DNA of 64,000 nucleotides from Yuukianura sp. NJ FZ-2021. Lineage: Eukaryota. The notes beneath the pieces are model-generated. The model made no database searches. It was not told where the DNA came from and saw only the letters and a program-made list of their open reading frames with translations. The stretch covers positions 6,510,001 to 6,574,000 of the forward strand of contig CM102287.1 in NCBI GenBank assembly GCA_046563655.1, written 5' to 3'. Position numbers and translations under genes: made by a program. Each line of letters starts with the position of its first letter. The first letter of the stretch is position 1. Below, piece by piece: positions 13,764 through 16,387 of the stretch.

Positions 13764-16387
13764 TCAATTCTTTGCTTTCCTCGATTCACGTTCAGCTAAC
13801 TTTTCTAACGCTGTTTGTTGCAGCGTAAGTAGAGATGCAACAACCTCGTCAATCGGAGCGCCGAGTTCAGTCGAGAAACGATTGGCCAATCCAATAATTT
13901 CCCCATCCGAAACCACCTTAGCTTCGACGTTGTAGTAGGGCGCGAGCCACAATTTCACACCCTCAGCTTTCAGTTTGATACGAACACGGTCTTGCAAAGT
14001 CTCGTTCGAACTGGACGAAGTCACTGATTTGTTCGGCGTGAAGCTGGTGTCAGAACTACTGCCTGGGATATAACGACTTCCTCCTACAATTCATACAGTA
14101 TTATCTTAGGATGATGTGCTGGAAGTAAGATTTATAAAGTACAGCTATCTATCTATCGAATAGACATTACCAGTCAAGGGATCCGAGTACACGGACGGTG
14201 TTGCGCCTAATTCAATCCCCTTTGAATTGTTGATAATGAAGTTGGCAACTTGATCCAGGAAATTTTTATCCAAATCATTTTTTTCCAAAAATTTGTGGGC
14301 TGCATACCAAGGATCTTCTGTAACGTTGTACGGGAGTTTTAGTGCCGATCCGGTGTCATCAAGAGCCACATTAAAAACATAGTCGTATTCCTGTCGCAGA
14401 AGCAATGAAATTCTTTATCAATCGACAAATCATGAGTTCAATACACACTTACTATTCCTTCGTAAAGGACACGTCCAGAGCTTTGTGGAGTAGCGCCACT
14501 CCCGCCAACGACATTTCCTATTTTGTTCCATGTTTGGCCAGACTCAGACCAGCTGTAGCAGACAACGTTTGAACCCTCTCGTACCATTTTTGTGATACCA
14601 TCTCTTTTTCCTTCCACTAACAAAGCTTCTGGTCCAGGAAGTTCTGAGATCTTCATGCCGCCAAGTTCGAGCTGCGCTGCAACCTGGAGCTGAGCAACGG
14701 AATCTTCAAACTCCTTTTGAACCGCCAACGGGGCCATCCTCTCAGGTTCACAAGTAAACACCCGAACAACGCCATCACTGTTACAAAAACGAATTTCAGA
14801 ATGAGATGTTTTAGCTCCGACATTAAAACCCGCCCAGGACTGACCGACTTGTTTCGGTTTCCTTTTTCCAAGAATAGATATTCCTCGCTCACCTACTTCC
14901 AGTTATAATGTCTCCGTTACCCATTACAGCAACAGACCAGACACTTAGAGCAGGTAAAAATATTACTTGAGCTTCCTCTCCCCCTCTCCAGATTCGCAGA
15001 GTCTTATCCTCGCCCACAGACACAAACCCCTCTTCATTTGGCAGAACTGCTAAACTGAAAAATGGATCAAAAGCTTTACAGAATGTACTGAGTTTATCGA
15101 TTATTCTAAAAATATTTCCGTACCTGTAAATAAAATTTGTATGACCGTAATAGGTATTGATTGAGTCCCCGCTGATCAAGTTCCACAGAATGATCTGAGC
15201 ATCGTTAGAGCAGGATATAAATCTGGTATTACCCAGAAGTGCTATATCCCTAACACAGTCATTGTGTCCTCGAAACGTTTTAAGGGTAGAGGAATTCTCC
15301 CACAGACGAATTTCACGGTCAGCCGACCCTGTTAAAATTTGTGATCCTCCGGGTACAATAGCCACGGTCCACACTGCAACGCAAAAATGTGGAATATTTC
15401 AATCAGTTATTAAAGGACGAAAAATGGAATTTACCTGCCTGAGAATGCCCATACAACGTTTCTGTATTGTCCTGTCCGCGCCAAATTTTCGCAGTCATAT
15501 CCCAAGAACCACTCACAATTAAGTTGTCCCCAGCTCCATACGTGACCGCAATAGAACAAACTGAAAAAAAAACGTCACGTTCAGAAGTAAACTAACCTCA
15601 GCCCAGGAACATTAATGCTGGAGTCGGCTCTCAAAGTTCAAACCGAATTCTGTTTCATCCTAAAAACTCAACGTCTCACCTGGACCCTTATGGGACACCA
15701 AGCGAAAGACTGGGCTCTGATTTCCTACCACCCCCAATTCAAAAGCCAGTATCTGAAATTTTTTTTAAATATGAATGATGCAGATATCCATACAACATAA
15801 TACATATATGCAGAAACAAAGCGAATAGGATTATTACTACATGATCGTTTCCACCCGTAAGAATCAAACCATTGGGATACGTATCTGAAGGCGGAACAAC
15901 ACAGACACAAGAGACAAAATTGGTATGACCTTCACAGGATTGACGCATCTCAAACTCTCCATTTCCGCTGCGAAAAAAACAAACAACGGTTATTTTCCAA
16001 AACGTATTACTTAAATCACACTAACTAATAAGTACAAATAGAATATGTACGATAGTAGCGCGATATGCCGTAGTATCAATAAACCCTGACTTCACAAGGA
16101 AAGAATAGATAGCAAGCTGATACACTTGCAGTGTGGAACCACTTCTGGGATTCCGGATTCCGAGAAGTTAGGCTTACTGGGTGCGTACCGGCTACGGGGT
16201 ACTGGACTGGTTTCCGTACTTACCCAGGAAACCATACTTTGGCAGTTTTGTCCCTTGACGCAGAGACAACGAATTCCTTCCCGTCGTTGGTAATCCCAGC
16301 AGCTACACCTCTAACATCCAGTGAATGGCCAGTGAGCGTTGCGCGTAATTTGTAATCTCCTGATCCCAAAGTCCGTGTCTCCTCCAT
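13764..16387 (-). CDS. PLAA: Phospholipase A2-activating protein (PLAA/Doa1/Ufd3): WD40 repeats + PFU domain, no PUL domain, atypical C-terminus
   Basis: ATG 16387 (MEETRTLGSGDYKLRATLTGHSLDVRG), WD40 repeats (GHNDCVRD, GHTNFIY), PFU domain EYDYVFNV..LKLPYNVTEDPWYAAHKFL..FLDQVANFI, then DPLTGGSRYIPG across a splice junction; stop at 13764. Confidence 0.9.

What the first reader, a model, noticed from the sequence alone, without database searches (positions are those of the whole stretch)
13764..14085. PLAA/Doa1 lacks the PUL domain and ends in a NUB1-N-terminus-like helical domain
Seen: after the PFU domain and DPLTGGSRYIPG, the last exon continues in frame into LQDRVRIKLKAEGVKLWLAPYY...LANRFSTELG...EVVASLLTLQQTALEKL and stops. 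Known: PLAA normally ends in a ~270-aa PUL domain that binds p97/Cdc48, and as I recall NUB1 begins with a domain containing I(Q/K)LWxPPY. Inference: a lineage-specific chimera that binds ubiquitin via WD40/PFU but has swapped p97 binding for a NUB1-type module.
Basis: partly seen in the sequence, partly recalled or inferred. Interest (0 to 1): 0.7.

Follow-up and report, generated by a model that had tools for sequence, protein, structure and literature searches.

The report
PLAA gene ending in NUB1 N-domain
An arthropod (springtail-like) copy of the ubiquitin adaptor PLAA/Doa1 has lost its usual p97-binding end and instead finishes with the small N-terminal domain of another ubiquitin-pathway protein, NUB1, a domain whose job is still unknown.

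Summary
A nine-exon, minus-strand gene (16387..13764, all introns GT-AG, 589 aa) encodes the WD40 propeller, the PFU domain and one DP(L)TGxxxY linker motif of PLAA/Doa1/Ufd3. Its last exon then runs in frame through an 18-residue Ser-rich linker into an 80-residue domain and stops.

The NUB1 reading is also confirmed. The tail hits the N-termini of UBL+UBA proteins named NEDD8 ultimate buster 1. A NUB1 profile built without the tail finds it at E 1.3e-19. A family profile reaches residues 3-82 of human NUB1 (E 2e-8), which is the 'NTD' (residues 1-72) of the 2025 NUB1 paper.

No PUL, UBL or UBA coding sequence lies anywhere in the 64 kb window. DNA contigs from two studies bridge the junction. 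A 110-aa metagenome fragment, P0015, has the same junction, a 76% identical tail and its end at the same place.

Still open: expression (no RNA run listed), whether the genome also holds a canonical PLAA and an intact NUB1 (no genome held), and what the NTD does. This is a new variant of a known kind, of moderate interest.

The parts
16224..16387 (-). Exon 1, with the ATG at 16387-16385; start of the WD40 propeller
   Evidence: gene model (donor GTAAGT); PLAA profile positions 3-44
15838..15967 (-). Exon 2 (WD40)
   Evidence: PLAA profile 47-105
15680..15752 (-). Exon 3 (WD40)
   Evidence: tblastn with P0002 residues 93-112
15435..15560 (-). Exon 4 (WD40)
   Evidence: PLAA profile 110-152
15124..15373 (-). 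Exon 5 (WD40 repeats)
   Evidence: Pfam WD40 E 5.8e-20 on ORF 14889-15398
14893..15054 (-). Exon 6 (end of WD40 propeller)
14453..14777 (-). Exon 7: linker and first half of PFU
   Evidence: PF09070 profile positions 2-52, E 1.6e-10
14171..14390 (-). Exon 8: second half of PFU; ends with DPLTG (first part of the linker motif, 14171-14183)
   Evidence: PF09070 profile positions 53-111, E 5.8e-21
13764..14083 (-). Exon 9, the last coding exon, including the stop TGA at 13764-13766
   Evidence: Acceptor TTGTAG; one open frame to the stop
14061..14083 (-). Second part of the PLAA linker motif, (G)GSRYIPG. With exon 8 it reads DPLTGGSRYIPG = DP(F/Y/W/L)TGxxxYxx
   Evidence: the motif consensus comes from passages of PMC12232612
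14007..14060 (-). 18-residue Ser/Thr-rich linker (model residues 492-509). The PLAA/NUB1 breakpoint lies in here. No in-frame Met
   Evidence: It diverges from P0015 while both flanks are conserved
13767..14006 (-). NUB1 N-terminal-domain (NTD) homologue, model residues 510-589: three helices plus a short beta bridge
   Evidence: AlphaFold2 pLDDT 91.7
13564..13580 (-). Two ATTAAA hexamers about 185-200 bases past the stop. They fit a poly(A) signal but are not evidence for one
   Evidence: 176 AWTAAA matches in the window against 217 expected by chance

Best explanation
Shown: this is an intact protein-coding gene for a 589-aa chimera. It carries a PLAA/Doa1-type WD40 propeller, a PFU domain, one DP(L)TGxxxY linker motif, a short Ser-rich linker and then the N-terminal domain (NTD) of NUB1, followed by a stop. 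The PUL domain that docks canonical PLAA on the C-terminal tail of p97/Cdc48 is absent, and so are the UBL, core and UBA parts of NUB1.

Inferred origin: a genomic rearrangement with one breakpoint inside the PLAA linker exon joined it in frame to the first coding part of a NUB1 gene or copy. This happened before the window's organism and the organism behind P0015 split. The chimera has been kept under selection since: the domain is 76% identical, the linker has diverged, and both end at the same aligned position.

Inferred function: the protein still captures ubiquitinated cargo through WD40 and PFU. It probably keeps the Dcp1-type linker-motif contact. It can no longer dock on the p97 tail through PUL. 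The folded NTD instead supplies a different partner surface, so cargo is routed to whatever the NUB1 NTD binds. I think this most likely lies within the NUB1/p97/proteasome hand-over pathway, because NUB1 itself is a p97 (VBM) and proteasome (UBL) adaptor.
For: - Gene model: 9 exons, all GT-AG, 1770 nt, one terminal stop.
- Pfam WD40 and PFU on the exons. The PLAA profile covers positions 3-491 of 777.
- The WD40-PFU part is 61% identical to Orchesella cincta PLAA and about 50% to four Lepidoptera, the ordinary range for this family.
- Tail = NUB1 NTD. phmmer against 1.84 billion representatives gave 18 hits at E <= 0.001. One is P0015. Twelve align the tail to their own residues about 5-92. 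Of those twelve, 8 carry a UBL and 3 also carry UBA domains. Two are named NEDD8 ultimate buster 1, from Ischnura and Drosophila.
- BLASTP gives E 8e-13 and 5e-12.
- A profile of six full-length NUB1 sequences that excludes the tail hits only this ORF among 4070 six-frame pieces (E 1.3e-19, profile positions 8-85).
- The family profile hits human NUB1 residues 3-82 in 8usb, 8usc and 8usd (E 2e-8 to 1.2e-7).
- The NTD is defined as residues 1-72 in PMC12285911.
- The tail folds confidently: pLDDT 91.7, pTM 0.76.
- P0015 has the same junction and its end at the same place.
- There is no Met in the last exon, so it is not a separate NUB1 start.
- Independent contigs span the junction.
- The one listed polymorphism inside the exon (14061) falls on the third base of a Gly codon, GGC to GGA.
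Against: - No RNA run is listed, so splicing, the 3' end and expression are unverified.
- No genome is held. A canonical PLAA and an intact NUB1 may coexist, which would make this a side-copy of uncertain importance.
- Only two instances are known. P0015 is a 110-aa fragment from contigs of at most 1109 bases, and its DNA could not be fetched.
- The NTD has no known partner. Deleting it from human NUB1 had no effect on FAT10 degradation in vitro (PMC12285911), so a new partner surface is inference.
- 5 of the 18 phmmer hits were bacterial SBBP-repeat proteins matched over short stretches. This shows that part of the tail (residues about 3-30) attracts noise hits.
- Fold searches gave only generic three-helix matches.
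Confidence: 0.6

Rival explanations
1. A PUL-less side copy acting as a decoy or ubiquitin buffer. The genome also holds a canonical PLAA and an intact NUB1. This paralogue keeps WD40 and PFU and competes for ubiquitinated cargo without handing it to p97. The NUB1 NTD is only a stable cap with no partner of its own.
For: PLAA can be duplicated in arthropods: two Teleopsis dalmanni proteins, P0013 and P0014, are 66% identical. The NTD is dispensable in the only assay published (PMC12285911). The window's WD40-PFU part is somewhat further from Orchesella (61%) than the metagenome fragment P0001 is (70%).
Against: The tail is the best conserved part of the last exon between the two organisms. It is 76% identical to P0015, while the adjoining linker has diverged, and it keeps all 6 columns invariant across 13 NTD sequences. 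That argues for constraint on the NTD itself. No second PLAA could be looked for.
Confidence: 0.25
2. A non-functional locus: a recently broken PLAA (a pseudogene in the making) or an unexpressed rearrangement product.
For: No RNA evidence was available. Loss of PUL removes the best-known function of the family.
Against: The ORF is intact over nine exons with canonical splice sites. A second organism shares the junction, tail and end position at 67-76% identity, which means long retention. The tail model is confident.
Confidence: 0.07
3. PUL is still supplied, either by far-away alternative 3' exons or by a split gene elsewhere. The NUB1-like exon would then be only one alternative ending.
For: C. 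elegans ufd-3 has long and short isoforms (PMC12232612 figure legend). Only 64 kb could be examined.
Against: No PUL-like coding sequence on either strand of the window by tblastn (E <= 5-10) or by a --max profile search. The gene's introns are 61-256 bases. Another gene converges on the 3' end, and an innexin gene lies further downstream.
Confidence: 0.05
4. The resemblance to NUB1 is chance, and the tail is an unrelated helical domain.
For: No hit in the local Pfam copy. No single-sequence PDB hit. Generic fold matches only.
Against: Independent NUB1 profile E 1.3e-19. Full-length co-linear alignment with 11 NUB1 N-termini. Human NUB1 hit by profile.
Confidence: 0.01

Closest known systems
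PLAA / Doa1 / Ufd3 / UFD-3 (phospholipase A2-activating protein family)
   Same: N-terminal WD40 propeller, PFU domain (PF09070) and one DP(F/Y/W/L)TGxxxY linker motif. The match is co-linear to profile position 491 of 777 and 61% identical to the springtail Orchesella cincta protein. The intron before GSRYIPG appears shared with a canonical fragment, P0040.
   Different: Lacks the C-terminal PUL domain (about 250 residues, PF08324) that binds the p97/Cdc48 C-terminal tail (PMC5468458, PMC10641518 and PMC12232612 passages). It has one linker motif rather than the two or three seen in P0002, P0012 and P0040. It ends in a domain foreign to the family.
NUB1 / NUB1L (NEDD8 ultimate buster 1), N-terminal domain, residues 1-72 of the human protein
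   Same: The tail aligns over the whole NTD with arthropod and human NUB1: 40-47% identical to arthropod sequences, with the LW..P(Y/F) motif and the L..LQ..AL.KLA.R helix conserved.
   Different: Here the NTD is C-terminal and has no Met of its own. It is not followed by the UBL, bs-trap/core, UBA1-3 or C-terminal helices that carry out NUB1's known activities.
P0015, an unnamed 110-aa predicted protein from JGI/IMG metagenome contigs
   Same: Same junction (DPFTGGSRYIPG, then a Ser-rich linker, then the NTD), 76% identical in the tail, ends at the same place.
   Different: It is only a fragment. The upstream WD40/PFU part and the DNA were not recoverable. It carries a precomputed Pfam label, PF26285.1, that the local Pfam copy does not hold.

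Membership tests
PLAA/Doa1/Ufd3 | N-terminal seven-bladed WD40 propeller | tested here: met
   Pfam WD40 E 5.8e-20 on one exon ORF. PLAA profile positions 3-290 are covered by exons 1-6.
PLAA/Doa1/Ufd3 | PFU domain (PF09070) | tested here: met
   Two exon ORFs cover profile positions 2-52 and 53-111 of 113, with E 1.6e-10 and 5.8e-21, both above the 26.2-bit cut-off.
PLAA/Doa1/Ufd3 | Linker motif DP(F/Y/W/L)TGxxxYxx (consensus from PMC12232612) | tested here: met
   One copy, DPLTGGSRYIPG, at model residues 480-491.
PLAA/Doa1/Ufd3 | C-terminal PUL domain (PF08324) that binds the p97/Cdc48 tail | tested here: not met
   No Pfam hit on the last exon. No tblastn or profile match to PUL positions anywhere in the 64 kb. 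The rest of the genome could not be searched.
NUB1 | N-terminal domain (human residues 1-72) | tested here: met
   (E 1.3e-19 with a profile that excludes the tail).
NUB1 | UBL domain after the NTD (binds proteasome Rpn1) | tested here: not met
   A stop lies at the NTD/UBL boundary. No UBL match in the window.
NUB1 | Core/trap region and UBA1-3 domains | tested here: not met
   No match in the window to NUB1 profile positions beyond 85 at a meaningful E-value; the best is E 0.35 on a 20-aa piece.
p97/Cdc48 adaptors in general | Any recognised p97-binding element (PUL, PUB, UBX, VIM, VBM, SHP) | tested here: inconclusive
   The domain types PUL, PUB and UBX were not found by Pfam on the exons scanned (exons 1-4 were not scanned with Pfam). 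Short motifs (VIM, VBM, SHP) were not searched for. Binding itself is not testable with these tools.

The most novel reading that the evidence does not exclude
This is a 'Rosetta-stone' fusion. The NUB1 NTD, a conserved domain with no assigned function, would be a docking module for p97/Cdc48 or one of its cofactors (or for NUB1 itself). In this lineage it would functionally replace PUL, so PLAA-bound ubiquitinated cargo is still handed to the p97/proteasome machinery by a different handle. That would assign a function to the NUB1 NTD in all animals and link the PLAA and NUB1 pathways.
Probability: 0.15. Interest if true: 0.75.

Novelty: new variant of a known kind. Interest (0 to 1): 0.5.

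Why it matters
In the PLAA relatives seen here, PUL is almost always present: the precomputed Pfam lists of 13 of the 14 hits include PF08324, and the exception is a 277-aa fragment. The reviews read here treat PUL as the handle by which the family works with p97/Cdc48. A conserved natural variant that keeps both ubiquitin-binding modules but exchanges that handle is a ready-made separation-of-function allele. It shows which PLAA activities can persist without PUL.

It is also the first context I could find in which the NUB1 NTD occurs apart from the rest of NUB1. That gives a concrete way to look for the partner of a domain whose deletion had no phenotype in the only published assay.

The search for 'PLAA' with 'NUB1' (10 papers hold both terms, 8 listed) showed no paper describing such a fusion, judged from titles and abstract starts only.

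Tried and rejected
- Word-indexed protein search with the last exon, longer proteins only: 382 candidates, none at E <= 0.01. No full-length chimera is on record there.
- Protein Atlas by features: no usable hit.
- Single-sequence PDB search: only a chance hit at E 1.2.
- Two metagenome scans for the DNA of P0015 or relatives: 118 and 494 pattern matches, none confirmed.
- Whole genome: none held. A second PLAA and an intact NUB1 could therefore not be sought.
- Sequencing runs: no RNA holder listed, so there is no evidence on expression either way.
- Foldseek against PDB: 0 matches at E <= 0.001, best E 1.4.
- VIA-align wide: best Z 6.0 (7vim_A and 6p5a_B, rmsd 2.5, 56-65 aligned residues). 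These are generic HTH/homeodomain/FF-like three-helix matches, below the tool's own noise level for helical models. No functional inference was drawn.
- Homodimer test of the tail with complex prediction: no verdict (score 0.00, controls not run).
- Earlier findings of this scan: nothing for this genome or sequence. One unrelated PFU note.
- Weak similarity just past the stop (13731-13763) to the start of the NUB1 UBL in two tblastn extensions. It is too weak to call a relic.
- Liu et al. 2013 (NUB1L-p97, PMC3829446) is not held. The position of the NUB1 VBM was not seen. My recollection that it lies between the UBA domains, not in the NTD, comes from no call.
- AWTAAA hexamers are not enriched.

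Full report
**What is there**

The region 13764-14090 is an open frame on the minus strand. It is the last of nine exons of a gene running from the ATG at 16387 to the TGA at 13764-13766.
- All eight introns are GT-AG and 61-256 bases long.
- The spliced frame is 1770 nt, giving 589 aa, with a single terminal stop.
- Exon coordinates: 16387-16224, 15967-15838, 15752-15680, 15560-15435, 15373-15124, 15054-14893, 14777-14453, 14390-14171, 14083-13764.

Pfam finds WD40 repeats (E 5.8e-20) and the two halves of PFU (PF09070, E 1.6e-10 and 5.8e-21) on the exon ORFs I scanned. A profile of 12 PLAA proteins (777 positions) matches exons 1-9 co-linearly from position 3 to 491 and no further.

The WD40-PFU part is 61% identical to the PLAA of the springtail Orchesella cincta (P0002). 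It is about 50% identical to four lepidopteran PLAAs. Orchesella is itself 51-52% identical to those Lepidoptera. Other ORFs in the window encode innexin, CutC, GMC oxidoreductase, semaphorin and Spt20 domains. The organism is therefore an arthropod, most likely a springtail or a close relative. This is inference from similarity only.

**The junction**

- Exon 8 ends ...DPLTG and exon 9 begins GSRYIPG. This gives DPLTGGSRYIPG at residues 480-491.
- That string fits the motif DP(F/Y/W/L)TGxxxYxx, described as the conserved short linear motif of the PLAA/UFD-3 disordered linker, which recruits DCAP-1 to P-bodies (PMC12232612, passages seen).
- Canonical PLAAs carry two or three copies and then PUL, as in P0002, P0012, P0040 and P0041.
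- Here one copy is followed by 18 Ser/Thr-rich residues (492-509) and then an 80-residue domain (510-589) and the stop.
- The last exon contains no Met, so the tail cannot be the start of a separate gene.

**The tail is the NUB1 N-terminal domain**

The local Pfam copy gives nothing, and a single-sequence PDB search gives only noise. HMMER against 1.84 billion representatives gave 18 proteins at E <= 0.001:
- One is P0015 (see "Is it real, and is it kept?" below).
- Twelve align residues 2-78 of the tail to their own residues of about 5-92.
- Five are bacterial SBBP-repeat proteins matched over short stretches, which I regard as noise.

Of the twelve N-terminal hits:
- 8 carry a ubiquitin-like domain right after the match.
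- 3 also carry UBA domains.
- The other 4 are fragments of 79-156 aa.
- Two are named NEDD8 ultimate buster 1, from Ischnura elegans and Drosophila ficusphila.

Further tests agree:
- BLASTP of the last exon against these two gives E 8e-13 and 5e-12, at 40-41% identity over 67-68 residues.
- A profile built from six full-length NUB1 proteins, none of them the tail, was searched with filters off against all 4070 six-frame pieces of the window. It finds only this ORF (E 1.3e-19, profile positions 8-85). The next hit has E 0.35.
- A 13-sequence alignment (A2) has six invariant columns: L, W, P, A, L, A.
- The A2 profile reaches human NUB1 residues 3-82 in PDB entries 8usd, 8usb and 8usc (E 2e-8 to 1.2e-7). 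That profile includes the tail and P0015 among its 13 rows.

The authors of those PDB entries define the NUB1 'NTD' as residues 1-72. They report that deleting it had no effect on FAT10 degradation. Its function is not assigned (PMC12285911, passages).

AlphaFold2 with A2 gives a confident small domain:
- pLDDT 91.7 and pTM 0.76.
- Helices at residues 4-15, 34-48 and 52-79, with a short beta bridge between the first two.

Fold searches return only generic three-helix matches: Foldseek best E 1.4 and VIA-align best Z 6.0. No solved coordinates of the NTD were matched.

**What is missing**

The following found no PUL-like and no NUB1 UBL, core or UBA coding sequence on either strand of the 64 kb:
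- tblastn with Orchesella PLAA, two further PLAAs and six NUB1 relatives;
- the two profile searches.

A + strand gene (RS-rich, with two CCHC knuckles) ends near 13243 and converges on the 3' end. An innexin gene lies further downstream.

**Is it real, and is it kept?**

The junction lies inside one exon. DNA contigs of four runs from two studies cover it. X2 record 13 (13785-14183), X3 record 20 (13795-14728) and X5 record 28 (13919-14525, second study) bridge it. An assembly chimera is therefore excluded.

P0015 is a 110-aa predicted protein from metagenome contigs of at most 1109 bases.
- It reads ...DPFTGGSRYIPG, then a Ser-rich linker, then the same domain.
- It is 76% identical in the tail, differs in the linker, and ends at the same aligned position.

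So a second organism shares the chimera. The pattern of conserved domain and free linker is what selection on a folded module gives. The closest named relative, Orchesella, keeps PUL. The chimera is therefore lineage-restricted or a paralogue.

**Mechanism**

*Shown:* the domain content.

*From the literature passages read:*
- WD40 and PFU bind ubiquitin, and PFU binds an SH3 partner.
- The linker motif recruits DCAP-1.
- PUL binds the p97 C-terminal tail (PMC12232612, PMC5468458, PMC10641518).
- NUB1 is listed as a VBM-type p97 adaptor and works with p97-UFD1-NPL4 and the proteasome (PMC5468458, PMC10641518, PMC6514573).

*Inferred:* the chimera still captures ubiquitinated cargo but cannot dock on the p97 tail via PUL, and the NTD provides a new partner surface.

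The bolder reading is that the NTD restores a link to the p97/NUB1/proteasome pathway. That is a classic fusion-implies-interaction argument, and it is untested. A homodimer prediction gave no verdict and counts for nothing either way.

**Open points**

- Expression: no RNA holder was listed.
- Whether a canonical PLAA and an intact NUB1 exist in this genome: none is held.
- How widely the chimera is distributed.
- The name of PF26285, the label precomputed on P0015, which the local Pfam copy does not hold.
- The primary paper on NUB1L-p97 was not available.

**Verdict**

This is a new variant of a known kind. Interest is moderate (0.5). The architecture is unexpected for a family in which 13 of the 14 relatives seen here carry PUL, and it gives a handle on an uncharacterised domain. 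Function and expression remain unshown, and only two instances are known.

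Noticed in passing
window 16425-16858: Just upstream of the PLAA start codon lies a very high-copy repeat. Summed contig depth is about 20,000 (X1), against about 200 on the flanks, with many loose ends and small joints in all four runs. It is probably a dispersed or MITE-like element in the promoter region.
   Followed up: no
window 10800-13243 (+): A convergent neighbour gene has Arg/Ser-rich exons and two CCHC zinc knuckles (CRHCGMSGH..C and CMHCRKMGH..C in ORF 12165-12359), ending EEAIKTI* near 13243. Two of its ORF pieces gave no Pfam hit at E <= 1e-4. 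Its 3' end lies about 520 bases from the PLAA stop, so the two 3' UTRs may overlap.
   Followed up: partly
window 9547-10145 and 17521-18054: Short dispersed or inverted repeats are visible as recurring ORF translations on both strands (for example ...KIYNLRTQSDRE... / ...KIYISRTESDRD..., and TSYKFWGMIW(A/G)PNHPPKFIRSLSS on both strands).
   Followed up: no
P0015 (metagenome protein): Its precomputed Pfam label is PF26285.1. The local Pfam copy returns nothing for it even at E <= 10. A newer Pfam release may already define the NUB1 NTD as a family.
   Followed up: partly
window 13731-13763 (-): Two tblastn alignments (P0016, P0032) run a few residues past the stop codon into ...PTRRSNRVTTN, opposite the first strand of the NUB1 UBL. 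This could be a relic of a longer NUB1-derived frame, but it is too weak to call.
   Followed up: partly
window 1367-3416 (-), 19319-19861 (+), 28200-29671 (-), 50807-52354 (+), 61318-62220 (-): Other genes in the window, by Pfam on long ORFs: innexin, CutC, GMC oxidoreductase C-terminal domain, Spt20 SEP domain, semaphorin Sema+PSI. This is an ordinary gene-dense arthropod context.
   Followed up: partly
window 11697-11790 and 14833-14890: Clusters of alternative letters and small indels in contigs of the same sample suggest two haplotypes or a mixed population in the sequenced material.
   Followed up: no
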